Notes: generated by a model from the sequence alone, not told the origin. DNA of 64,000 bases from an uncultured Alphaproteobacteria bacterium (GCA_944391375.1 CALXTJ010000001.1:49729-113728); one strand, 5' to 3'. Shown: positions 1 to 9,139, counted from the first letter of the stretch. A program made the numbers and translations.

Positions 1-2
1 AC

Positions 3-287
3 GGGGCAGGTTTTGAAGGGGATGATGCCGCAAGCATTTCCGTAGAGTTGGGAACGGATGCCGATGTCGGCAATCTTGAAAGTTTATGGAGCGAATTATC
101 GCGTAAGTATTCTTCGGTTCTTGGCTCCTACCAGCCGTTTTATTCGGTAGATGCACCGGCTGACGGTCAGGGTAAAGAATTGTTCCATTTAAGAATAGGA
201 CCGGTATCAACCATTGATGTAGGTGATAATATCTGCAGTCAGTTGGGCCGTAACGGCGTATTCTGCAGCGTAGTAAGGGTTCAGTAA
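3..287 (+). CDS. 3' end of a CDS truncated at the window start; the C-terminus looks like a SPOR (peptidoglycan-binding) domain
   Basis: The reading frame is open from position 3 to the TAA at 285-287. The C-terminal sequence LFHLRIGPVSTIDVGDNICSQLGRNGVFCSVVR fits the SPOR consensus (yRVqvGpf...A..l...L...G..afvv). Confidence 0.45.
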   Translation, partial: GAGFEGDDAASISVELGTDADVGNLESLWSELSRKYSSVLGSYQPFYSVDAPADGQGKELFHLRIGPVSTIDVGDNICSQLGRNGVFCSVVRVQ

Positions 288-300
288 GAATTAAGGTAAA

Positions 301-3300
301 ATGAGTAAAGAAGTTCTGACACATTCCGAAAGATATGTACGCAAGACCAATAGAATAATTTTAATCGTTGGTATAACCTCATTTGTGGTATTTCTATTCG
401 GCCTGTTATTGTTATTTTCCAGCGGCACGACGGAGAATGAATATCAGGAGCCGGTATTTACCGAAGATGACAGTGCCATCAATTTCGGAGAGGATCGCAA
501 TCCGTTATTGGACACAATAGAATTTACGGATGTGGAGGAAAAAGATTTACCGATAACCACTACGCCCAATCCTATAAGTATGGGCCAGGTTGTTTTGGGT
601 ACCGATGCTAAAAATGTTTTAACTATAGGCACCAACGGAACAACACCGATAAGAGTTGTTTCGGTCAAATTGGCTGAGCCGCCGTTTGAAGGTTTTACCT
701 TTAGTGACGGCTGTACAAGTGCGGAATTACGAGGCAATCAGACCTGTAATGTAACCATGAACTGGGTTCCGGTAACAGCCGGTAATGTACAAAACAATTT
801 TATTGTTTCGTGGCATGAGGCTAATGTCAGTGCTCAAAATGCCAAAGCCCAGAAAATTCCGGTTGAAGGTAAAGCAGTTACCAAAGAGGAATGCAGCTCA
901 TGCAGTACGGTAACGGGTATTCCGGATGCGGTTCAGGTTATCAAAGATGAAAACGGCAATATCATCGGGTACATAACATCCGACGGTAAAGCCGTTGATT
1001 TAAATGGCAATGAAATCGGTGTCGTACAAGGAGATGTTGTCGTTGATGAAAACGGTAATGTTATAGGTAGGATTAGTGCCAATAATGACAATGTAAGAGT
1101 AGCCTACGGACCGGATGGAAAAGTAATCGGTTATGTAGATAAAGACGGCTATGTCAGAGATGAAAACGGCAATATTATCGGTCGGGTCAATGATGAGGGC
1201 TTAATCGTTGATGAAAACGGCAATATTATCGGAGTGGCCGGTAACGAAAAATTAGTTTATGATGAAAACGGTAATGTGATAGGTTACGCCACAACAGACG
1301 GCAGGGTCATAGATTTTAACGGTCGGCAAATAGGCCGGGTAATGCCGGATGGCACGGTAGTAGATGCCAACGGAGCAGTAATCGGCAAAGTCGTTGAATC
1401 GGGATATGTTTACGATGAAAACGGTAATGTCATCGGCCGTGTTTTGGAGGACGGAACGGTAGTTGATAAGAACGGTAATGTCATCGGCAGGCTGAACGAA
1501 AACGGTGAAGTGGTAGACATGAACGGCAATGTTATAGGCTATGTCAGTAAGCCCGGAAGGACGGTTACGGATGAAGACGGCAATGTTGTGGGAGTGGTCA
1601 TGCCCGATAATTCCATTGTAGATGAGAATGGTAATATTGTAGGGTATGTGGATGAAAACGGGGAGGCTTATGCTTTAAGCGGTGAAAAAATCGGCAAGAT
1701 GGGACCGTCACGAAGGTTATATTATGATGAAAACGGTAATGCGATAGGGTATATAGATGAAAACGGCAACATTGTTGATTTTAGCGGCAATACCATAGGT
1801 AAAATACTGGACGACGGCACGGTTTTAGATGCTCAAGGCAATGTTATCGGTAAGATGTTGGAAGACGGAACCATTGTTGATAAGGACGGTAATGTATTGG
1901 GCAAAGCCGGCGACTATGTTAATTTAGCGGTAGATGAAAACGGCAATGTCATAGGTTACATAAACAAAAACGGCGAGGTGATAGACAGAAACGGTAATGT
2001 CATCGGTCGTGTTGATAAAGACGGCAACATTATCAGTAATAAAGCAGTTCGGATAGGGGCGGTAGTACGGACGGAGTTAATACCGGTTACGCCTTCGGGT
2101 ACGGTACTTGGCAAAGTATCTTCCACGGGAGAAGTTGTTAATGAAAAGGGCCAGAGTTTGGGCCGTATTTTACCCAACGGTTTGGTAAAAGAAGCCAACG
2201 GCTCCAAGTTTATAGCCAAAGGAGTTAAGGGCGGACTGGTTGTGGGCTGGGGCTGTTCTCAGGTAGGAACGCTCGGAGAGGACGGAATTGTTCGTAAAAA
2301 CGGCCAAGACATGCCTTATAAAATTACTCCCGACGGAGGAATTTATGATGATAAGGGCATGTATCTGGGCGAAGTTGTAAAAACCGGAAAAGTTTTTGAT
2401 AATCAATGTAACTATTTGGGCACGGCCAATGAACGCGGCATAGTCCAAACCGACAACAAAAAATATGTCGGATGTGTAAATCCGGACGGAAAAGTATTAA
2501 ATGAAAACGGCGATATTATAGGTAAAGTGGCCGAATATAAGTTTGCGGTTAATGAAAAAGGGGATTATGTTGGTTATTTAAATGTTAATGGACAAGTATC
2601 CGGAAGTTCTTTATTGCCGGTAGGTTGTATGAATACGGACGGGGAAATATTCAACTCGGAAGGGGAATATATAGGCCGGCAGGTTGATAAATTTTACATT
2701 TTCAGCTTAGACGGTAAATTTATGGATACCGTATCCCGAGACGGAAAAATTGATATCAAAGGCACCCCCGGAGCCAAGCTGTTTTTGCAAAAATATATAG
2801 CAGACGGCAATAACAAAATCATAGGCGTAGCTTATCCGGAAAGGAACAGAATAATCAATGCCGACGGCAAAATAATAGGCCAGTTGTTCGCAGATGGTAA
2901 TATTTATGATGCCCAAGGAATGGTTGTAGACAGGATTTATGGTGAAGGATTAAGTTTTTATGGTGGGCGAGCCGGAAAAATTTTACCTTACGGAAAAGTT
3001 GTCAACACTAAAGGCCAAGAGGTAGGGTTTGTAAATCCTGACGGAAGAGTTCTCAGTCGTTTCGGTGAATATTTCGGAAATATTGACACTAAGGGAAGAT
3101 GGTTTAATCTTAAAGGAGAATACTCCGGAGGGGTGGTCCATACGGGGGCCGGTATCGGTTATGACGGTTCTTACTTAGGTTACGCTTCACATTCGGGAGC
3201 CATAATCGGTTCCGGAGGAAAGATAAACGGTTACGGCAACGGTGCGGGTTTAATTTTAGATGCCAACGGAAAAGTTTTGGGCGATATAGTTGCGTCCGGA

Positions 3301-3921
3301 GCAGTAGCGGATTTATTTGGAAAATACAGCGGTTATACAGATGTTAAAGGTAATGTGTATGACTTAAGTAATAAATTTGTTACGGCGGTATTACCCGGAG
3401 GCTCAACCGATAAAGGATTGAGTATGTTAAGAAGAGGTATTGTCATTAACTTTGGCGGCAATGTTATAGGAGCGGTATATCCTGATGGATCGGTTATCAA
3501 TACCCAAAATGTAATTATCGGCAAGGTTTATTCCGACGGCAAAGTTGTCAATGAAAAAGGTGAGCTGTTAGGTGAAGTTGCCGAAGGCGATATAGTAATA
3601 GACAATGCCGACAAAGTAATTGGTTATGTAGCTTTTGACGGCAGTATCCGCGGTCAAGATAACGGCATTATCGGAAGATTATTATCGGGAGGTTTGGCGG
3701 TAGATAATCAAAATAATATTTTAGGTAAAGCCTATCGTATCGGGGCTTCGGTAGTATCCAATGACGGAGCTTATATCGGGTATCTTTCATCAGACGGCAA
3801 GGTTATCGGCAATAACGGAGAAAATGTCGGTTATTTAAAAAACAACGGTTCGTTTGTTGATTTAGATAAAAAAGTTGCGGGATATGCTTTGCAGGAAGTG
3901 GCACAAAATCGGAGGAATTAA
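301..3921 (+). CDS. 1206-aa bitopic membrane protein with an N-terminal TM anchor, an Ig-like segment, and about 55 degenerate 17-aa DENGNVIGxVxxDGxV repeats
   Basis: The ORF has a Shine-Dalgarno (AAGGTAAA) upstream of the ATG. Residues 1-20 are hydrophilic and followed by a TM segment (IILIVGITSFVVFLFGLLLLF). Most of the remainder is a repeat with a 51-nt period, and the DNA motif gatgaaaacggYaatRtYatMgg recurs at 946, 1045, 1159, 1210, 1261, 1414 and beyond. Confidence 0.85.
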   Translation: MSKEVLTHSERYVRKTNRIILIVGITSFVVFLFGLLLLFSSGTTENEYQEPVFTEDDSAINFGEDRNPLLDTIEFTDVEEKDLPITTTPNPISMGQVVLGTDAKNVLTIGTNGTTPIRVVSVKLAEPPFEGFTFSDGCTSAELRGNQTCNVTMNWVPVTAGNVQNNFIVSWHEANVSAQNAKAQKIPVEGKAVTKEECSSCSTVTGIPDAVQVIKDENGNIIGYITSDGKAVDLNGNEIGVVQGDVVVDENGNVIGRISANNDNVRVAYGPDGKVIGYVDKDGYVRDENGNIIGRVNDEGLIVDENGNIIGVAGNEKLVYDENGNVIGYATTDGRVIDFNGRQIGRVMPDGTVVDANGAVIGKVVESGYVYDENGNVIGRVLEDGTVVDKNGNVIGRLNENGEVVDMNGNVIGYVSKPGRTVTDEDGNVVGVVMPDNSIVDENGNIVGYVDENGEAYALSGEKIGKMGPSRRLYYDENGNAIGYIDENGNIVDFSGNTIGKILDDGTVLDAQGNVIGKMLEDGTIVDKDGNVLGKAGDYVNLAVDENGNVIGYINKNGEVIDRNGNVIGRVDKDGNIISNKAVRIGAVVRTELIPVTPSGTVLGKVSSTGEVVNEKGQSLGRILPNGLVKEANGSKFIAKGVKGGLVVGWGCSQVGTLGEDGIVRKNGQDMPYKITPDGGIYDDKGMYLGEVVKTGKVFDNQCNYLGTANERGIVQTDNKKYVGCVNPDGKVLNENGDIIGKVAEYKFAVNEKGDYVGYLNVNGQVSGSSLLPVGCMNTDGEIFNSEGEYIGRQVDKFYIFSLDGKFMDTVSRDGKIDIKGTPGAKLFLQKYIADGNNKIIGVAYPERNRIINADGKIIGQLFADGNIYDAQGMVVDRIYGEGLSFYGGRAGKILPYGKVVNTKGQEVGFVNPDGRVLSRFGEYFGNIDTKGRWFNLKGEYSGGVVHTGAGIGYDGSYLGYASHSGAIIGSGGKINGYGNGAGLILDANGKVLGDIVASGAVADLFGKYSGYTDVKGNVYDLSNKFVTAVLPGGSTDKGLSMLRRGIVINFGGNVIGAVYPDGSVINTQNVIIGKVYSDGKVVNEKGELLGEVAEGDIVIDNADKVIGYVAFDGSIRGQDNGIIGRLLSGGLAVDNQNNILGKAYRIGASVVSNDGAYIGYLSSDGKVIGNNGENVGYLKNNGSFVDLDKKVAGYALQEVAQNRRN
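940..2040 (+). repeat. Best-conserved block of in-frame tandem 51-nt (17-aa) coding repeats, VxDENGNVIGYVxxDGx
   Basis: Spacings between successive gatgaaaacgg motifs are 99, 114, 51, 51 and 153 nt. More degenerate copies continue to about 3850 and recur across 4020-6900 in the next gene. Confidence 0.85.
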
Positions 3922-3922
3922 A

Positions 3923-6900
3923 GTGTTTGATAAGTCGGTAAAAAAAATAAAAGCACTGGCGGCGGTTATTGCAATCATGTTAATAACGGTCAGTCCGGCG
4001 TTTTCACAAGAAATTACGGCCATCAATTTTAACGGCGATTTAATCGGAAAAGTAATCCCCGACGGAACGGTAGTAAGTTTTGATAACGAAATTATCGGCA
4101 ACATAACGGCCGACAGCTTTATTGTCAACGGCAAGGGAGAGTTGATAGGCGGTATAGTTCCGCAAGGAGTGGCCATAGGCAATGACAATAAATTATTGGG
4201 CAGAGTAAGCAACGACGGTACGGTTCGTCTGCCTTCGGGTAAGATAGTCGGTAAAGTTTTGCCGACATCATTGGTGGTAGATGATGCGTACAACATTTTA
4301 GGTTCGGTTTTATATCCGGGCTTGGTTTATGATGATGAAGGAAAAACGGTCGGACGCTTAACCGGCGACGGTTTATACATTAGTCTTGAAAGTCAAAACA
4401 TAGGTTTTGTTTCGGCCACCGGCCATGCGTATCGTAATACCGGTAAAGGATTTATTTTAGACGGTAAGTTAATATCTTCCAAAATGGTAGTTTCGGCAGA
4501 AGGAAAATTTATCGGCAGCATTACTGCCGGAGGTGTAGTTACCGATTTTTCTTCAAATCCGCTCGGCCAAGTTCATGCTAACGGTTATGTATATGATAAA
4601 AACAATCAAGTTATTGGTAAGACGATATCTAAGGGGTACGCTTTTGACAATTACGGTCAGTATTTAGGTTTGGTAACTTATAACGGTGAGGTTTTAAGCC
4701 AAGGAGATATTAAAGGTCGGCTTCGTGCGGACGGAAAGATTATCAACAACGAGGCACAGGTAATAGGTTTTGCCATAGATATTTCGGCAACAGCTTCGGA
4801 TTTTAACGGCAAATATTTAGGAAGAGTAATTCCCGGAGGTCAGGTTGTTTACTCCGGAGAAAGCGTTGGAACGGTAGGTGCCGGAGGCTACATTTGGAAT
4901 AAAGACGGAGCAGTTATAGGTCGGATTATAAAACCCGGTCCGGTATTTGACTATTTAGGAGAGTTAAAAGGTCAAACTGCTTATAACGGTACGGTAGTAT
5001 CATTGCTTGGAGCACCGATAGGTTATGCCAAAGGCAAGATTGCCTATGATAATATAGGTCGTATATTAGGTTCGGCAATGGACAGTGTACTGGTTTATGA
5101 TAATGCGGACAGATTGTTGGGTTTAAGCGGTATAGGTTCGGAAATAAAGGCCAACAATCAAATATTCAAGGTTTCGCCTTTTGGATATGTTTATTCTGCG
5201 GACAATTTACTGGCCGGCCATACGGTAGATATTGATGCGGTATATGATGAGGCGGGTCGTCCGCTGGCTTATATAGGAATAAGCGGAGAGTTACAAAATA
5301 TTCCGGCGGAGAAAAACTATCAAATTACACAGTTCGGCTTGGTTACGGATAGCACCAACCGTTTACAGGGAGCTCCGATTAAGCCGTATTTTGCGGTAGG
5401 TGAAGACGGTCGTGAATTAGGGGTTCCGGCTCAAAACAATTTGTTGCTTGATAAACAACGCAAGGTAAGCGGAAAAATAGTTCCCGAGTATAAGGTTACG
5501 GCAGATACAGAAAACGGAAACAACAATCAAATGCCGATAATCGGCGGAGTTGGCCGTTTCAATTTAGCTTTAGGTATCGGAGGGGATACTTTGGGCTATG
5601 TAGATTTAAGCGGTAAAGTTCGTGATTATTCCGGTAATGTTATAGGACAGGCCTTAGGCGGTGAGACTATAGGAGATGTGAAAAAATCGGTTATCGGTAA
5701 GGTAATGGATTTGCAAGGAGTGGTAAATGACCAATGTTCTTTTGTAGGTATTGTCGGCCAAAAGGGAGAAGTTCGCAACAGCCGAGATGTTATTTTAGGC
5801 AAGATACTAAACAACAATCAGGTTATTTCGGAAGTTGGGAATGTGGTTGGTTTTGGTGTACCGATGGGTTTGGTAACTGATTTTACCGGTAACAGTATCG
5901 GCCATGTGAATGCGTTAGGGCGAGTAATCAATTATAATCGCGAAGACTTGGGTTGTATCCGCCATGATGGCCGTTTGTATGATAAAGACGGAAAATATTT
6001 AGCTCGCAGGGTAGTTACATCACCGATAATGAATTTTGAAAATCAGATTATCGGCCGCAGCAATCTTAACGGCAGAATTATAGATGAAAAGAGTGCGGAT
6101 ATAGGCTATATTACGCCTGATGGAAGTGCAGTATCTTCACAAGGCACTATTTTAGGTACGACATTTAATTACAAAGTGGCATTCAGTGAAGATAACAGCT
6201 TTTTGGGACGAGTTTTGGAAAACGGCACGGTGGTAAGCGATAAAGATGATGTTTTAGGTAAGGTATTATTTGACGGAACCGTAGTAAGTGAAGACAAACC
6301 GATAGGATATGCGTTATACGATTTTTACATATATGATGGAGCCGGCAAAGCCATAGGTTATTTATCGGGAAGCGGGGAAGTGCTTAATTTTGCAGGCAAT
6401 AAATTAGGCCGAGCCGATAAGGGATTTTTAGTGGATGCGGAAAAGGATATATTAAGAGGCCGAGGCCGTCGGGATTACTTTATTCGTGATGACGAAAATA
6501 AAGTAATAGGAGAGTTATCATTAAACGGCGAAGTTATCGGATTAAACGGTAAGACGGTTGGTAAATTGGGCAGTAACGGTGAAATCCTAAGCGATTCCGG
6601 AGAAGTTATCGGCAAAGCCCGCGAGTTACAATATTACACCATAGAAAAGCCCGAGCCGGTTAAGCCGGCAGATTGGGCAACAACCCAAAGAGGCAAGAGC
6701 GATAACATCCAAATGGAAGCCGTTCCGGTAGCGGAAGAAACCGAAGAAAGTAAGTACGGATTAAAGACGGTAGGTATAGCATTAACCCCCGACGGTAACT
6801 ATTTGGGAGATATTTTAGTCAATAATGATGTTATAGATAAGTTAGGTAATTTAATAGGCAAAAAGATGCCTGACGGCTTGATAGTAGACAATCAGGGAGG

Positions 6901-8158
6901 CTTAATCGGTATAGAAGAGGCTAAAGGGGTACAAGGCGGTCAGATGTTTATACCGGCCGGAACATTTGGGTCCGGCGGAGCATACGGCACGGGCAATAAT
7001 CCGGCTAATTTAGGTCCCGGCGGAGGTTTTGGTCCGGGAGAAAGATATGATCCTGTAAGATCAAGAGCATTGGCGATGGCACAGAATGCCAGAAGAGAAG
7101 AGATAGTTGTCGGCAAAATATCCAGCAACGAGGATCCGGAAAGTTTTGACGGCAAGCAGGCGTATTGGAAGGGAGTTCCGCGGCAAATATCCAGTTGGCG
7201 AGTTGATATGAGCGAGATGATATTGGCAGACAAGCCGATACCGGCGGTTTTGGCCCGAACGATTATGTCCAGCAACGGAGCTGATAATGTACCGGTAACG
7301 GCAATAGTAGAGCGAAATGTATATGCAGAAACCGGCCGCAACATAGTAATACCGGCAGGTAGCAGAGTTATGGGAACATCTTCGGGAGGAGCAGCCGGCG
7401 GAAGCGGAGCGGTAAGAGTTTCCATTACCTGGACGCGTCTTATTCGCCCGGATGGTTCGGCTTTTGAGTTTTCATCGGCCCAAACCGGAGATGCACAAGG
7501 TCGTGGCGGAGCGTTAGGATACATAGATGAGCAGTTGGTAAAAAAATATACCTTGCCGATGATTACCAACTTATTGAGCAGTGCGGTAGCTTATGTTGCG
7601 GCCAGCGGAGAAACAACTACGACAGCGGATGGAGGAACGGTAGAGAGTGCTCGTCAGGAAGCCTCGCAGGATGCCCGGGAGAACTTTTTGGATAATATGG
7701 ATACCATGTTCAACCAAATTTTGGCTGATAAAACGGATATTGCGGCAGTTACCTATGTTCCGGCCGGCACCCGCTTGATTATTTATCCTAAGGAAGACTT
7801 ATGGATAAGAACCAGAGAGCGTACGGAGGAAGAATCTTTAATGGCCAGCAACAAGCCTACGGTATTCTTAGACGATCGTGATCCGACCGGGGAACTTGAA
7901 AGATCCTCAGGCGGTAATGCCGGAGGCAATAGCAGTAGCGGAACGGGTACGGGAAGCGGCACCAGCGGAGTTGTGTATGTAGATAACAGCAATGCCGAGG
8001 TGCAAGGTACCCCCTTAATTGATGAAACAGATACCGGGGGCAAAAACAAAAAACAAACTCGTCCGACAGGTATACCTCCGGTAACTTCAACCGGAGCCAC
8101 ACCTCCGCCTCCGTCATCAACGGCGGGAGTAAATAATACTTCGGCCCAGCTGTTCTAG
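3923..8158 (+). CDS. virB10: Giant VirB10/TrbI-family protein of about 1411 aa: TM anchor, a periplasmic repeat region of about 1000 aa, a Gly/Pro linker, a VirB10 C-terminal domain, and a Gly/Ser/Thr/Pro tail
   Basis: The VirB10/TrbI signature lies at about 7190-7800: IPAVLARTIMSSNGADNVPVTAIVERNVYAETGRNIVIPAGSRVMGT...VRVSITWTRLIRPDGSAFEFSSAQTGDAQGRGGALGYIDEQ. The N-terminal region carries a degenerate xxDxxGxxIGxVxxxGxV repeat like the upstream gene. I prefer the GTG start at 3923, which has a GGAGG box 7 nt upstream, over the ATG at 3875, which overlaps the upstream gene by 47 nt. Confidence 0.85.
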   Translation: MFDKSVKKIKALAAVIAIMLITVSPAFSQEITAINFNGDLIGKVIPDGTVVSFDNEIIGNITADSFIVNGKGELIGGIVPQGVAIGNDNKLLGRVSNDGTVRLPSGKIVGKVLPTSLVVDDAYNILGSVLYPGLVYDDEGKTVGRLTGDGLYISLESQNIGFVSATGHAYRNTGKGFILDGKLISSKMVVSAEGKFIGSITAGGVVTDFSSNPLGQVHANGYVYDKNNQVIGKTISKGYAFDNYGQYLGLVTYNGEVLSQGDIKGRLRADGKIINNEAQVIGFAIDISATASDFNGKYLGRVIPGGQVVYSGESVGTVGAGGYIWNKDGAVIGRIIKPGPVFDYLGELKGQTAYNGTVVSLLGAPIGYAKGKIAYDNIGRILGSAMDSVLVYDNADRLLGLSGIGSEIKANNQIFKVSPFGYVYSADNLLAGHTVDIDAVYDEAGRPLAYIGISGELQNIPAEKNYQITQFGLVTDSTNRLQGAPIKPYFAVGEDGRELGVPAQNNLLLDKQRKVSGKIVPEYKVTADTENGNNNQMPIIGGVGRFNLALGIGGDTLGYVDLSGKVRDYSGNVIGQALGGETIGDVKKSVIGKVMDLQGVVNDQCSFVGIVGQKGEVRNSRDVILGKILNNNQVISEVGNVVGFGVPMGLVTDFTGNSIGHVNALGRVINYNREDLGCIRHDGRLYDKDGKYLARRVVTSPIMNFENQIIGRSNLNGRIIDEKSADIGYITPDGSAVSSQGTILGTTFNYKVAFSEDNSFLGRVLENGTVVSDKDDVLGKVLFDGTVVSEDKPIGYALYDFYIYDGAGKAIGYLSGSGEVLNFAGNKLGRADKGFLVDAEKDILRGRGRRDYFIRDDENKVIGELSLNGEVIGLNGKTVGKLGSNGEILSDSGEVIGKARELQYYTIEKPEPVKPADWATTQRGKSDNIQMEAVPVAEETEESKYGLKTVGIALTPDGNYLGDILVNNDVIDKLGNLIGKKMPDGLIVDNQGGLIGIEEAKGVQGGQMFIPAGTFGSGGAYGTGNNPANLGPGGGFGPGERYDPVRSRALAMAQNARREEIVVGKISSNEDPESFDGKQAYWKGVPRQISSWRVDMSEMILADKPIPAVLARTIMSSNGADNVPVTAIVERNVYAETGRNIVIPAGSRVMGTSSGGAAGGSGAVRVSITWTRLIRPDGSAFEFSSAQTGDAQGRGGALGYIDEQLVKKYTLPMITNLLSSAVAYVAASGETTTTADGGTVESARQEASQDARENFLDNMDTMFNQILADKTDIAAVTYVPAGTRLIIYPKEDLWIRTRERTEEESLMASNKPTVFLDDRDPTGELERSSGGNAGGNSSSGTGTGSGTSGVVYVDNSNAEVQGTPLIDETDTGGKNKKQTRPTGIPPVTSTGATPPPPSSTAGVNNTSAQLF

Positions 8159-8167
8159 GAGAGTAAG

Positions 8168-9139
8168 ATGAGTACATTTACCGTTTTAGAATCCGTTTTA
8201 AGACCTTTGGCGTATTGGTATAATCAGGATAACATAGAGGAAGTTGCCATCAATCGTTCCGGTCAAATATGGCTGCGTTTGCGAGGCAAAAGAGCTTATC
8301 CGTGGGTAATGTATAAAGATGAAAAGCTCACCAAGGAGTATTTAACCGATTTACTGTATATTGTGGCCAACACTTATGAGCTGCCGTTTGATCCGATACA
8401 AGGTTCGCCGGTGGTGTATGCCACAATTCCCGGAGATCACCGTTTTTCGGCCATAGCCGGTCGGAATATTATGTATGATCAGGACGATTTAACCGGAGGC
8501 GTGGCGTTAACCATTCGTGTTCATAGCGATGAAGTGGCTTTTGGTCTTGGTGACTATGGTTTGCAACAAGGTAAAGCTTTACACAAAATCAACCCGCTAA
8601 AACAGATTAAAGATCCGGAAGATCCTTATGAGAGATTGCTGTTAAGTATTAAACGAGGTGACCATATTTTAGTCAGTGGTGCCACTTCAACAGGTAAGAC
8701 CACTTTTTTAAATAACTTACTCAAAATTTTGGATATACATAAACGCATTGTAACCATAGAAGATACACGAGAACTTATAGTTCCCCATCCTAATCGTGTA
8801 CATTTGGTATTATCTCGTACTGAGCAAACCAATGAGATGGACTATGCCAAAATTATTGACTTGGTGGTTCGTTTTACTCCCGATGCGATAATCGGAGGTG
8901 AGATTTCCACAAGCAATGCCGGAGCGTTGTGGGAGTTGATGGGTTCCGGTCACGATAACTGCTTAGCAACTATTCACGCCGAAAGTTCGGAAGCTGCCTA
9001 TCAAGCGTTTACGGACCGAATTTTGCATACATATCCCAGTATAGACAGGGCCAAGACCATAGAAGAAATGCGTCAAAAGTTAAGGGTTGTACAAATCAAT
9101 CGTGACGGCAACCTGCGTGCAATTACGGAAATTACCTAA
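8168..9139 (+). CDS. virB11: VirB11-family type IV secretion ATPase (323 aa)
   Basis: The Walker A region reads ILVSGATSTGKTTFLNNLLKIL, followed by IVTIEDTRELIV, which is typical of VirB11/TrbB hexameric traffic ATPases. A GGAGAG ribosome-binding site lies upstream, and the gene starts 9 nt after the virB10 stop. Confidence 0.85.
   Translation: MSTFTVLESVLRPLAYWYNQDNIEEVAINRSGQIWLRLRGKRAYPWVMYKDEKLTKEYLTDLLYIVANTYELPFDPIQGSPVVYATIPGDHRFSAIAGRNIMYDQDDLTGGVALTIRVHSDEVAFGLGDYGLQQGKALHKINPLKQIKDPEDPYERLLLSIKRGDHILVSGATSTGKTTFLNNLLKILDIHKRIVTIEDTRELIVPHPNRVHLVLSRTEQTNEMDYAKIIDLVVRFTPDAIIGGEISTSNAGALWELMGSGHDNCLATIHAESSEAAYQAFTDRILHTYPSIDRAKTIEEMRQKLRVVQINRDGNLRAITEIT

What the first reader, a model, noticed from the sequence alone, without database searches (positions are those of the whole stretch)
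3923..9139. CagY-like giant VirB10: a VirB10/TrbI C-terminal domain fused behind about 1000 aa of periplasmic tandem repeats, followed by VirB11
Canonical VirB10/TrbI proteins are about 380-480 aa. This one is about 1411 aa. After the N-terminal anchor comes about 1000 aa of a degenerate 17-aa repeat (xxDxxGxxIGxVxxxGxV), then a Gly/Pro linker, then an unmistakable VirB10 barrel-antenna domain (ITWTRLIRPDGSAF…GALGYIDEQ), then an 80-aa G/S/T/P-rich tail. The only architecture I know that resembles it is Helicobacter CagY, a VirB10 homologue whose large repeat regions recombine to tune T4SS activity. No alphaproteobacterial vir/trb VirB10 is known to carry such a domain, as far as I know. A bona fide VirB11 ATPase directly downstream argues that the protein belongs to a functional secretion machine rather than being a decayed fragment.
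Basis: partly seen in the sequence, partly recalled or inferred. Interest (0 to 1): 0.9.

Follow-up and report, generated by a model that had tools for sequence, protein, structure and literature searches.

The report
Split giant VirB10 of gut Alphaproteobacteria
This gene encodes the outer-membrane half of an unusually large, naturally two-piece VirB10 channel protein in a near-complete type IV secretion machine conserved in hundreds of uncultured gut Alphaproteobacteria, and its roughly 1,000-residue repeat region is a fixed, conserved beta-hairpin scaffold rather than a CagY-style variable region.

Summary
Window 3923-8158 encodes an intact 1411-aa protein: about 52 beta-hairpin repeats of 17 aa (Pfam beta-flower families), a conserved Gly-rich segment, a true VirB10/TrbI C-terminal domain with two antenna helices, and a disordered tail. 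VirB11 follows.

The CagY reading is only partly right:
- The repeats are beta-hairpins. CagY's are alpha-helical.
- The gene contains no recombinogenic DNA repeats.
- 14 of 15 strain variants are exactly 1411 aa.
- The main array has no indel in homologues down to 47% identity.

The "N-terminal anchor" looks like a cleavable signal peptide. The real anchor lies in the upstream ORF (301-3921, 1206 aa), which has a cytoplasmic tail, a TM helix, an Ig-like domain and a paralogous hairpin array. Sister lineages carry one 1930-2406-aa VirB10 with that same N-terminus and the same C-terminal domain, at the same operon position. The window pair is therefore a split giant VirB10.

Same-species contigs show the operon: VirB2x3, B3, B4, four secreted proteins, B8, B7-like, B8, B9, the split B10 and B11. 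No VirB6 or VirD4 was seen. At least 309 gut alphaproteobacterial species genomes carry a relative. I found no literature. Verdict: a new variant of a known kind.

The parts
3..287 (+). 3' end of virB9 (the last 94 codons plus stop), a C-terminal SPOR-like extension of a 524-aa VirB9/CagX
   Evidence: The frame-3 translation is identical to the C-terminus of the 524-aa CagX-domain protein in L005. Pfam CagX E=1.1e-11; SPOR E=0.01.
301..3921 (+). Inner-membrane half of the split VirB10 ('p1206', 1206 aa). It has an 18-aa cytoplasmic tail (MSKEVLTHSERYVRKTNR), a TM helix (aa 19-37, nt 355-411), an Ig-like ASH/choice-of-anchor-D-like domain (about aa 85-167) and a very regular 17-aa beta-hairpin array (about aa 215-1200).
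   Evidence: Pfam Bflower_2 E=4.7e-79 in 9 stretches. The TM Kyte-Doolittle score is 2.93. It aligns colinearly with the VirB10 array: 337-1198 against 34-901, E=1e-50. Residues 6-1199 align with residues 7-1188 of the unsplit 2287-aa VirB10 P0246, E=7.5e-97. The same tail-plus-TM motif occurs in at least 15 unsplit VirB10 clusters.
3909..3925 (+). Junction: Shine-Dalgarno GGAGGA, the TAA stop of p1206 (3919-3921) and the GTG start of virB10 (3923)
   Evidence: Read directly from the sequence. The conserved 'KIGG(I/T)KV' pre-sequence in other species shows that this junction is conserved.
3923..4006 (+). Predicted cleavable Sec signal peptide of VirB10 (aa 1-28, ...SPAFS|QEITAI)
   Evidence: It has a short hydrophobic core with a KD score of 1.79. 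An AxA-like -3/-1 pattern sits directly before an invariant xEITA(I/V)xF mature N-terminus in 72 species. This is an inference; no SignalP run or proteomics was available.
4007..6622 (+). Main beta-hairpin array (aa 29-900; 97 strands, about 49 hairpins of 17 aa)
   Evidence: AF2 with a 60-sequence alignment gives pLDDT 89.5 and pTM 0.83, all-beta. The periodicity is shown. Pfam beta-flower families match. No indel of 8 aa or more occurs in 23 homologues down to 47% identity.
6623..6766 (+). Disordered acidic and Pro-rich linker (aa 901-948), the family's insertion hot spot
   Evidence: pLDDT is 29-45 here. Homologues carry insertions of 10-360 aa of extra hairpins at this site. A sister species shows a 48-aa copy-number polymorphism at this site.
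6767..6922 (+). Three highly conserved terminal hairpins (aa 949-1000)
   Evidence: Six strands with pLDDT 85-88. Mean identity to homologues is 0.73.
6923..7057 (+). Conserved Gly-rich segment (aa 1001-1045, ...GGAYGTG..NLGPGGGFGPGERYDP), sitting where the canonical Pro-rich region would be
   Evidence: Mean identity is 0.71 with many invariant residues. It is disordered in the monomer model.
7058..7810 (+). VirB10/TrbI C-terminal domain (Pfam match aa 1100-1294, nt 7220-7804), with two long antenna-like helices (aa 1203-1226 and 1243-1270, nt 7529-7600 and 7649-7732)
   Evidence: Pfam TrbI E=1.5e-30. PDB sequence hits: ComB10 6.6e-20, then CagY, TrwE, VirB10 and TraF. The top 24 Foldseek hits are all VirB10 homologues, probability 1.0, TM-score against the target 0.5-0.6, although the model is of low confidence (pLDDT 53).
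7811..8158 (+). Disordered Gly/Ser/Thr/Pro-rich tail (aa 1297-1411) ending in a conserved C-terminal ...xLF motif, plus the stop codon
   Evidence: pLDDT is 28-36. The tail varies in length. The terminal (Q/A/D/S)L(F/L) is conserved in 70 species and in the unsplit forms.
8168..9139 (+). virB11 (323 aa), the last gene of the operon
   Evidence: Pfam T2SSE E=4.7e-22. TIGR02788 VirB11 E=4e-43, below its cut-off. Best PDB hit is Brucella VirB11, 1.4e-18. The next gene (yihA) is convergent on the minus strand.

Best explanation
The ORF at 3923-8158 is the outer-membrane-proximal half of a giant VirB10 that has been split into two adjacent, translationally coupled genes.

Shown:
- The upstream ORF (301-3921) carries the conserved cytoplasmic tail, the inner-membrane TM helix, an Ig-like domain and about 55 beta-hairpins.
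- The downstream ORF carries a signal-peptide-like N-terminus, about 52 beta-hairpins, a conserved Gly-rich segment, the VirB10 barrel with its antenna helices, and a disordered tail.
- In sister lineages one 1930-2406-aa polypeptide has all of these parts and sits in the same place in the operon.
- The pair belongs to a chromosomal VirB-type (P-type) T4SS operon conserved across gut-associated uncultured Alphaproteobacteria. The operon is near complete; VirB6 and VirD4 were not seen.

Inferred:
- The signal peptide is cleaved, so the VirB10 C-terminal domain enters the outer-membrane core complex with VirB9 and the VirB7-like lipoprotein, while its hairpin array hangs in the periplasm.
- The two paralogous hairpin arrays associate non-covalently. 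This rebuilds the link from inner to outer membrane that a canonical one-piece VirB10 provides, and adds a large, rigid, multi-copy periplasmic scaffold. The expanded core complexes of Cag and Dot/Icm are the analogy.
- The main array is a fixed structural element, not a variable one. Length change in the family is confined to one linker hot spot, to the C-terminal tail and to the inner-membrane half.

The secreted substrate is unknown.
For: VirB10 identity.

Intact and conserved:
- The exact protein occurs on several independent assemblies.
- All 120 homologues listed carry Bflower plus TrbI.
- There are 309 confirmed relatives in species-representative genomes, and all 80 loci kept show the same order: B8, B8, B9, hairpin protein, B10, B11.

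The split:
- p1206 has a strong N-in TM and a conserved tail, whereas VirB10 has a signal-peptide-like N-terminus with an AxA-type site before an invariant xEITAIDFNG in 72 species.
- At least 15 clusters (at 50% identity) of 1930-2406-aa proteins combine the p1206-type N-terminus (SSSEQYxKKSNR plus TM) with beta-flower repeats and a TrbI domain whose C-terminal region is 43-53% identical to the window's.
- p1206 residues 6-1199 align with P0246 residues 7-1188 (E=7.5e-97). The VirB10 C-terminal domain aligns with P0246 1955-2171 at 52% identity.
- In L090 the single 2287-aa gene lies between virB9 and virB11.
- A GGAGGA Shine-Dalgarno sequence lies 8 nt before the GTG start.

Fixed scaffold:
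- AF2 gives pLDDT 89.5 and pTM 0.83.
- aa 29-900 contain no indel of 8 aa or more in 23 homologues.
- 14 of 15 strain variants are 1411 aa.
- The longest exact DNA repeat, 12 nt, equals chance, and TRF finds nothing.

Operon on same-species contigs: three VirB2-like pilins, a VirB3-like protein, an 810-aa VirB4, and so on.
Against: - No direct evidence shows that the signal peptide is cleaved or that the two halves interact. The structure tool folds monomers only, and I could not inspect coordinates, so the shape of the array (rod, ring or stacked flowers) is unknown.
- The summed length of the two halves is not conserved: 2514-3239 aa across 61 species, Spearman -0.37. This argues against a simple end-to-end molecular ruler.
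- No VirB6-like polytopic protein and no VirD4 were seen in the operon or the window. The rest of the genome was not searched.
- All components score below the NCBIfam equivalog cut-offs, so function is extrapolated from distant homologues.
- The direction of the event (a split rather than a fusion) is inferred from canonical VirB10s being bitopic. It was not tested with a rooted tree.
Confidence: 0.72

Rival explanations
1. A CagY-like rheostat. The repeat region recombines in frame to change repeat number and so tunes T4SS activity or evades immunity.
For: The overall layout is a repeat-expanded VirB10. In a sister human-gut species (P0079 type, 98.5-99.9% identical sequences), 5 sequences carry a 48-aa in-frame insertion, three copies instead of two of a 3-hairpin module of about 50 aa, at the linker hot spot. 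The inner-membrane half varies from 1100 to 2446 aa between species and contains a 23-nt exact DNA repeat.
Against: In the window gene the longest exact DNA repeat is 12 nt, against a codon-shuffled mean of 12.3. TRF finds no array, and direct-repeat copies are only 60-77% identical. Fourteen of 15 strain variants are 1411 aa and one is 1410. The main array has no indels and its residues are conserved position by position across the clade. The window ortholog has a 48-aa non-repeat linker at the hot spot. CagY's repeats are alpha-helical (PMC9371333).
Confidence: 0.08
2. The hairpin array is a ligand-binding module, for peptidoglycan, glycan or lipid, that fastens the machine to the cell wall or a membrane. 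It would not be a protein-protein scaffold between the two halves.
For: Beta-flower relatives have been annotated as cell-wall-binding or MORN-like, and the clan includes the lipid-binding Tubby domain (PMC10584680). The adjacent VirB9 carries a SPOR-like (peptidoglycan-binding) C-terminus. No VirB1 lytic transglycosylase is seen in the operon.
Confidence: 0.12
3. The array is exported and displayed on the cell surface as an adhesin or sheath that contacts target cells, as has been proposed for the CagY repeat region.
For: The array is large, strongly conserved, rich in Asp/Asn/Gly and resembles YD/Rhs repeats, as many surface proteins do. The bacteria live in animal guts.
Against: Topology: the array is N-terminal to the outer-membrane-inserted domain and follows a Sec signal, which places it in the periplasm. 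In the unsplit forms the same array is tethered at its other end to an inner-membrane helix, which is incompatible with surface display.
Confidence: 0.05
4. Artefact or decay. The two ORFs are one gene broken by a sequencing error or a recent frameshift (a pseudogene), or they are rejoined by programmed frameshifting.
For: The VirB10 reading frame stays open for 48 nt upstream of its start and overlaps the end of p1206 in the +1 frame. Unsplit versions exist.
Against: The same junction occurs in independent assemblies and in 61-72 species. The junction carries a Shine-Dalgarno sequence and a start codon. The downstream half has acquired a conserved signal peptide and a conserved mature N-terminus. 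Both halves are conserved at 45-65% identity with no internal stops.
Confidence: 0.03

Closest known systems
Helicobacter pylori CagY (Cag T4SS VirB10 homologue, 1927 aa)
   Same: It has a C-terminal VirB10 domain behind a very large repeat region and belongs to an 'expanded' T4SS in which VirB9 and VirB7 homologues are also enlarged. The C-terminal domains match by sequence and fold.
   Different: CagY's repeats are alpha-helical modules encoded by recombinogenic DNA repeats. Here the repeats are 17-aa beta-hairpins with diverged DNA and a fixed number. CagY is one polypeptide with its own N-terminal TM; this protein is split. No Cag3, CagM or CagT homologues were seen.
Legionella DotG/IcmE with DotF (Dot/Icm T4BSS)
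   Same: DotG is a VirB10-like C-terminal domain behind a long repeat region, partnered by a separate inner-membrane-anchored periplasmic protein (DotF) encoded next to it. Both contribute to a large periplasmic ring (PMC9371333). The model's C-terminal domain also hits DotG structures (ranks 23-24).
   Different: From my own knowledge, DotG carries pentapeptide repeats; no Pentapeptide family hit occurs here. The gene context here is type IVA (VirB2-B11). p1206 is a paralogue of, and the former N-terminal half of, the VirB10 itself; it is not an unrelated partner.
Canonical VirB10/TrbI/TraF/TrwE/ComB10 (about 380-480 aa)
   Same: The TrbI domain scores above the Pfam cut-off. The best solved relative is ComB10 (E=6.6e-20). 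The two-helix antenna is present. The operon neighbours are VirB9 and VirB11.
   Different: This protein is three times larger, and the Pro-rich spacer is replaced by about 52 hairpins plus a Gly-rich segment. There is no cytoplasmic tail or TM helix on this polypeptide. It scores below the NCBIfam VirB10 and ComB10 equivalog cut-offs (88.9 against 220; 105.5 against 300).
Beta-flower proteins (Pfam PF21784/PF21785, clan CL0395; Durairaj et al. 2023, PMC10584680)
   Same: The Pfam matches are significant (153 bits against a cut-off of 38). The repeat unit is a beta-hairpin with [DNEQ]xxG at the tip.
   Different: The described beta-flowers are single closed barrels of about 100 aa with 8-12 strands. 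Here there is one uninterrupted array of 97 strands, predicted as a single confident body (pTM 0.83) and fused to a secretion-system subunit.
Rhs/YD-repeat shells (T6SS Rhs, teneurins, Tc toxins)
   Same: There are weak RHS_repeat and YD Pfam/TIGRFAM hits on p1206. The Foldseek local-geometry hits are the best in the PDB (E about 1e-21).
Rickettsiales vir homolog (rvh) T4SS
   Same: VirB8 is duplicated, with a small VirB7-like lipoprotein gene between the copies, followed by B9, B10 and B11. There are several VirB2 paralogues, and the system is chromosomal (PMC2653234).
   Different: VirD4 does not follow VirB11 and there is no VirB6 expansion. B2, B3 and B4 lie in the same operon. The VirB8 copies match Bartonella and Agrobacterium VirB8 structures rather than a Rickettsia one. 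The resemblance is a lead only.

Membership tests
VirB10/TrbI (PF03743) | C-terminal TrbI domain scoring above the family cut-off | tested here: met
   106.9 bits against a cut-off of 35, E=1.5e-30, profile positions 2-187 of 188.
VirB10/TrbI (PF03743) | Fold of solved VirB10 C-terminal domains, including the two-helix antenna | tested here: met
   The top 24 Foldseek PDB hits are all VirB10 homologues (probability 1.0, TM-score against the target 0.5-0.6). Two helices of 24 and 28 residues flank a 16-residue loop. Caveat: the model's pLDDT is only 53.
VirB10/TrbI (PF03743) | Bitopic topology: an N-terminal cytoplasmic tail and inner-membrane TM helix on the same polypeptide | tested here: not met
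   The N-terminus looks like a signal peptide with an AxA-type site conserved in 72 species. The tail and TM lie on the upstream ORF and on unsplit relatives.
VirB10/TrbI (PF03743) | Encoded with VirB8, VirB9, VirB11 and VirB4 | tested here: met
NCBIfam T4SS_VirB10 / T4SS_ComB10 equivalogs | Score above the curated equivalog cut-off | tested here: not met
   88.9 against 220 and 105.5 against 300 bits.
CagY-type VirB10 | Large repeat region N-terminal to the VirB10 domain | tested here: met
CagY-type VirB10 | Alpha-helical repeat modules | tested here: not met
   The model is all-beta. CagY's repeats are alpha-helical (PMC9371333, its ref. 80).
CagY-type VirB10 | Near-identical DNA repeats and in-frame length polymorphism between strains | tested here: not met
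   The longest exact repeat is 12 nt, equal to chance, and TRF finds none. Fourteen of 15 variants are 1411 aa. A 48-aa polymorphism exists, but only in a sister species at the linker hot spot.
DotG/IcmE-type VirB10 | Pentapeptide repeats and a type IVB gene context | tested here: not met
   No Pentapeptide family hit. The operon is of VirB type.
Beta-flower (PF21784/PF21785) | Pfam match above cut-off and a [DNEQ]xxG hairpin-tip motif | tested here: met
   Bflower_2 153.3 bits against a cut-off of 38. The motif is visible in the repeat register.
Beta-flower (PF21784/PF21785) | Closed 4-, 5- or 6-fold shallow barrel of about 100 residues | not testable with these tools
Rhs/YD-repeat shell | YD-repeat cocoon fold | tested here: not met
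rvh-type T4SS | Duplicated VirB8 flanking a VirB7-like gene, then B9, B10, B11 | tested here: met
   The gene order in Rickettsia is taken from PMC2653234.
rvh-type T4SS | VirD4 downstream of VirB11, expanded VirB6 paralogues, and specific sequence affinity to Rickettsiales components | tested here: not met
   No VirD4 or VirB6 in the operon or window. The best solved VirB8 relatives are Bartonella and Agrobacterium. No phylogeny was made.

The most novel reading that the evidence does not exclude
The roughly 100 beta-hairpins contributed by the two halves, in many copies per machine (14 if the core complex keeps canonical symmetry), assemble into a new kind of periplasm-spanning beta-structure. 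It could be a palisade of rods or stacked beta-flower tubes. This structure would couple the inner-membrane ATPase platform to the outer-membrane gate without a covalent link. The clade would then be a natural experiment showing that VirB10's envelope-spanning signal transmission does not need one continuous polypeptide. Because the beta-flower clan includes lipid-binding Tubby-like barrels with hydrophobic channels, the array could even act as a conduit for lipid or other hydrophobic cargo between the membranes.
Probability: 0.2. Interest if true: 0.85.

Novelty: new variant of a known kind. Interest (0 to 1): 0.66.

Why it matters
VirB10 is the one T4SS subunit thought to span both membranes and to pass on energy-dependent gating signals. 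That description comes from established knowledge of the VirB/VirD4 system, not from this work.

- This clade offers a naturally split VirB10 alongside unsplit sister forms. That pairing allows a direct test of whether covalent continuity is required.
- It adds a third, independent type of 'expanded' T4SS beside Cag and Dot/Icm. Its repeat fold is a continuous array of 97 beta-flower-type strands, and no solved structure matches it.
- The system is chromosomal, strongly conserved, and present in at least 309 species-level genomes of uncultured Alphaproteobacteria from human, ruminant, horse, rabbit and chicken guts. The lifestyle of these bacteria and their interactions with hosts or other microbes are essentially unknown.
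- A conserved secretion machine is one of the few mechanistic handles available on them.

Tried and rejected
1. Recombination substrate. I tested for a CagY-like substrate with TRF, the repeat finder and the longest exact repeat against codon shuffles. There is none in virB10.
2. Strain length variation. I looked at the members of the 90%-identity cluster. There is none.
4. Downstream partners. I checked genes downstream of VirB11 in five other species for VirD4 or other T4SS genes. I found PEP-utilising enzymes or no family hit.
5. Large window ORFs. I checked ten of them for VirB4, VirD4 or VirB6. All identifiable ones are housekeeping genes (topA, bamA, recN, ffh, dprA and others).
6. p1206 N-terminus. 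I searched the first 215 aa for fusion to TrbI. The word-index search returned only short fragments of the same family. The answer came from the exhaustive search with the C-terminal domain instead.
7. Molecular ruler. I tested whether the summed length of the two halves is constant. It is not: SD 192 aa, Spearman only -0.37, not corrected for phylogeny.
8. rvh affinity. I tested it through solved VirB8 structures and found no Rickettsia preference.
9. AFDB Foldseek library. It was unavailable.
10. Literature. Searches for RF32 or 'Azospirillum sp. CAG' with 'type IV secretion' or 'secretion system', and for DUF3659, found nothing relevant.
11. Terminator scan after virB11. It was uninformative.

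Full report
**Observation**

The ORF listing and translation show one uninterrupted frame ending at 8158. Independent gene calls on metagenome contigs that encode the identical protein start it at GTG 3923, giving 1411 aa. This start lies 1 nt after the TAA of the preceding ORF and 8 nt after a GGAGGA Shine-Dalgarno sequence.

Pfam places a TrbI/VirB10 domain at aa 1100-1294 (E=1.5e-30, 106.9 bits against a cut-off of 35). It matches the beta-flower families Bflower_2 (E=2.7e-45, 7 stretches), Bflower and DUF3659 over the first 1,000 residues or so.

Motif spacings are 17, 34 and 51 aa. DNA repeat copies are spaced 51, 102 and 153 nt. In the structure model, strand pairs recur every 17 residues in 55 of 95 cases.

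The C-terminal 411 aa match solved ComB10 (6.6e-20), CagY, TrwE, Xanthomonas VirB10 and TraF by sequence. A model of aa 940-1411 has low confidence (pLDDT 53). Even so, its top 24 Foldseek PDB hits are exclusively VirB10 homologues, and it shows two long helices where the antenna belongs.

The ORF at 8168-9139 is a divergent VirB11.

**The repeat region**

I ran AF2 on aa 25-1005 with a 60-sequence family alignment. It gave pLDDT 89.5 and pTM 0.83. The model is purely beta: a 5-residue and a 3-residue strand alternate in each 17-aa unit. There are 97 strands in a main array, then a disordered stretch (model residues 895-921), then 6 more strands.

I could not inspect coordinates, so the overall shape is undetermined.

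**Not a CagY-like variable region**

- TRF finds no tandem DNA array.
- Direct-repeat families are only 60-77% identical.
- The longest exact DNA repeat in virB10 is 12 nt, equal to the codon-shuffled expectation of 12.3.
- Of the 22 sequences within 90% identity, the 15 listed comprise fourteen of 1411 aa and one of 1410 aa.
- In an alignment of 24 homologues down to 47% identity, aa 29-900 contain no indel of 8 aa or more. Dozens of positions are invariant, and mean identity there (0.52) approaches that of the TrbI domain (0.70).

All length change is concentrated in two places: the disordered linker at about aa 915-938 and the C-terminal tail. In other sublineages the linker site holds 140-360 aa of extra, much more regular hairpins.

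In one human-gut species (P0079 type, sequences 98.5-99.9% identical) five sequences carry a 48-aa in-frame insertion there, three copies of a 3-hairpin module instead of two. Repeat-number polymorphism does therefore exist in the family. It occurs at a hot spot that in the window ortholog is a 48-aa non-repeat linker.

**The missed partner and the split**

The upstream ORF (301-3921, 1206 aa) is also a beta-flower repeat protein (Bflower_2 E=4.7e-79). Its parts are:
- an 18-aa cytoplasmic tail;
- a strong TM helix (KD score 2.93);
- a weak Ig-like (ASH/choice-of-anchor-D) match;
- a very regular 17-aa array.

Its array aligns colinearly with that of VirB10 (337-1198 against 34-901, E=1e-50).

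VirB10 itself has only a short hydrophobic core (KD score 1.79). In 72 species an AxA-type site follows this core, directly before an invariant xEITA(I/V)xF. That is a Sec signal peptide, not an anchor.

An exhaustive HMMER search with the C-terminal domain found 84 clusters (at 50% identity) at E<=1e-30. At least 15 of these are proteins of 1930-2406 aa, and there is one of 1498 aa. The three scanned (P0246, P0288, P0291) hold beta-flower repeats plus TrbI. Their N-termini are the p1206 type: tail motif SSSEQYxKKSNR, then a strong TM, then an Ig-like region.

BLASTP maps p1206 6-1199 onto P0246 7-1188 (E=7.5e-97). It maps the window C-terminal domain onto P0246 1955-2171 at 52% identity. In its own contig the 2287-aa gene sits directly between virB9 and virB11, after the same B8, small ORF, B8 run.

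Hits weaker than about 1e-33 are mostly TrbI proteins of roughly 420-630 aa; the three scanned carry TrbI only.

The window's two ORFs therefore correspond to the two halves of a single giant bitopic VirB10. The junction, the signal peptide and the mature N-terminus are conserved across the clade, so this is an old, functional split and not an error.

**Context**

The window begins inside virB9. Contigs carrying the identical proteins give this operon:

| Order | Gene product |
|---|---|
| 1 | three VirB2/TrbC-like pilins (116, 123 and 351 aa) |
| 2 | a 96-aa VirB3-like protein |
| 3 | VirB4 (810 aa) |
| 4 | four Sec-signal, coiled-coil or low-complexity proteins (about 585, 222, 410 and about 1522 aa) |
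| 5 | VirB8 |
| 6 | a 62-aa lipoprotein (VirB7-like) |
| 7 | VirB8 |
| 8 | VirB9 (524 aa, SPOR-like C-terminus) |
| 9 | p1206 |
| 10 | VirB10 |
| 11 | VirB11 |

The 585-aa and 1522-aa proteins vary in length between strains.

No polytopic VirB6, no VirB1 and no VirD4 occur in the operon or the 64-kb window. Downstream lie the housekeeping genes yihA, yidC, yidD, rnpA and rpmH.

The order B8, B8, B9, hairpin protein, B10, B11 is invariant in 80 species-representative genomes. A total of 309 relatives were confirmed. Most records are labelled as uncultured Alphaproteobacteria, with a few evidently mislabelled bins, and they come from human, ruminant, deer, horse, rabbit and chicken gut. One named member, Candidatus Scatocola, sits in Rhodospirillaceae incertae sedis in NCBI. 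From memory this corresponds to GTDB order RF32; I did not test that.

Every component scores below the NCBIfam equivalog cut-offs, so this is a deep, divergent VirB-type lineage. The duplicated VirB8 flanking a VirB7-like gene recalls the Rickettsiales rvh system (PMC2653234). However, solved-structure searches give no Rickettsia affinity, and VirD4 and expanded VirB6 are missing.

**Mechanism**

Shown: the domain content, the split, the conservation and the operon.

Inferred:
- After Sec export and cleavage, the C-terminal domain joins VirB9 and the lipoprotein in the outer-membrane core, with its antenna helices in the outer membrane.
- The two paralogous hairpin arrays, one tethered to each membrane, associate in the periplasm. 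This restores the envelope-spanning VirB10 link and builds a large scaffold, by analogy with the expanded Cag and Dot/Icm cores (PMC9371333).

Evidence against a simple ruler model: across 61 species the inner-membrane half varies from 1100 to 1832 aa, while the outer half stays at 1362-1533 aa. The sum is not conserved (SD 192 aa, Spearman -0.37, uncorrected for phylogeny).

The substrate is unknown. VirB11 without an adjacent VirD4, together with several Sec-exported proteins encoded inside the operon, would fit a Ptl- or Brucella-like mode. The C-terminal domain's best solved match is the DNA-uptake ComB10. Both points are leads only.

**Novelty**

Some database entries are named 'TrbI/VirB10 family protein' or 'hypothetical protein'. 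Four literature searches found nothing on this system.

It is a VirB10 and a T4SS, so the kind is known. Three features make it a new variant of that kind:
- a beta-flower-type hairpin array of fixed length;
- a natural split into an inner-membrane half and an outer-membrane half, with unsplit sisters;
- a wide distribution in gut commensals.

Noticed in passing
window 26726-31540 (- strand): A 1604-aa ORF with no Pfam or NCBIfam hit. It is rich in Ala, Glu, Lys and Gln and has no signal peptide. It carries tandem 'AAAQNREDQFEAA' and 'EAPAKEAEAPAKEQPAQ' repeats and a central Gly/Ala-rich hydrophobic stretch (about aa 570-740). It could be an effector or a surface protein.
   Followed up: partly
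window 31741-33054 (+ strand): A 437-aa ORF with no family hit that contains an HExxH motif (VYHECGHLL). It may be an unclassified metalloprotease. It is transcribed divergently from the 1604-aa ORF.
   Followed up: no
L005 1966-6534; L087 8254-10011 and 11901-16565 (same-species contigs, upstream of the window): Two Sec-signal, coiled-coil or low-complexity proteins inside the T4SS operon vary in length between strains that share identical neighbouring genes: about 577-637 aa and 1522-1554 aa. These proteins, not VirB10, are the strain-variable components of the system.
   Followed up: partly
L087 3481-5351: Three VirB2/TrbC-like pilin genes lie in a row. One is 351 aa, with a long Cys- and Gly/Asp-rich C-terminal extension after the two pilin TM segments.
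   Followed up: no
window 3-287; L005 8413-9987; L090 8249-9979: VirB9 is enlarged (524-576 aa) and ends in a SPOR-like, putatively peptidoglycan-binding domain. No VirB1 transglycosylase is present in the operon.
   Followed up: partly
L087 1-3084 (- strand): Transcribed divergently from the T4SS operon are a secretin, a TcpQ-family protein and a 572-aa protein with no family hit. This suggests a pilus or secretin system next door.
   Followed up: no
window 8105-8155 (VirB10 C-terminus) and homologues: The otherwise variable, disordered tail ends in a conserved ...(V/I)P(Q/S/D/A)L(F/L) or ...SAQLF carboxy-terminus in both split and unsplit forms. It is unexplained and may be a docking or sorting motif.
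   Followed up: partly
window 6923-7057: The 'Gly/Pro linker' is among the most conserved parts of the protein (mean identity 0.71, many invariant Gly, Tyr, Arg and Asp residues). It is probably a functional contact segment rather than a passive linker.
   Followed up: partly
window 1-8000: GC skew is strongly positive (0.24-0.29) across the two repeat genes, against about 0-0.1 in the ten kilobases that follow. This probably reflects the Gly/Asp/Val-rich repeat codons.
   Followed up: no
L020 and table: The inner-membrane half ranges from about 1100 to 2446 aa between species (29-79 motif hits). The window copy contains a 23-nt exact DNA repeat (1159/1210). This gene, rather than virB10, is the likelier site of repeat expansion and contraction.
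   Followed up: partly
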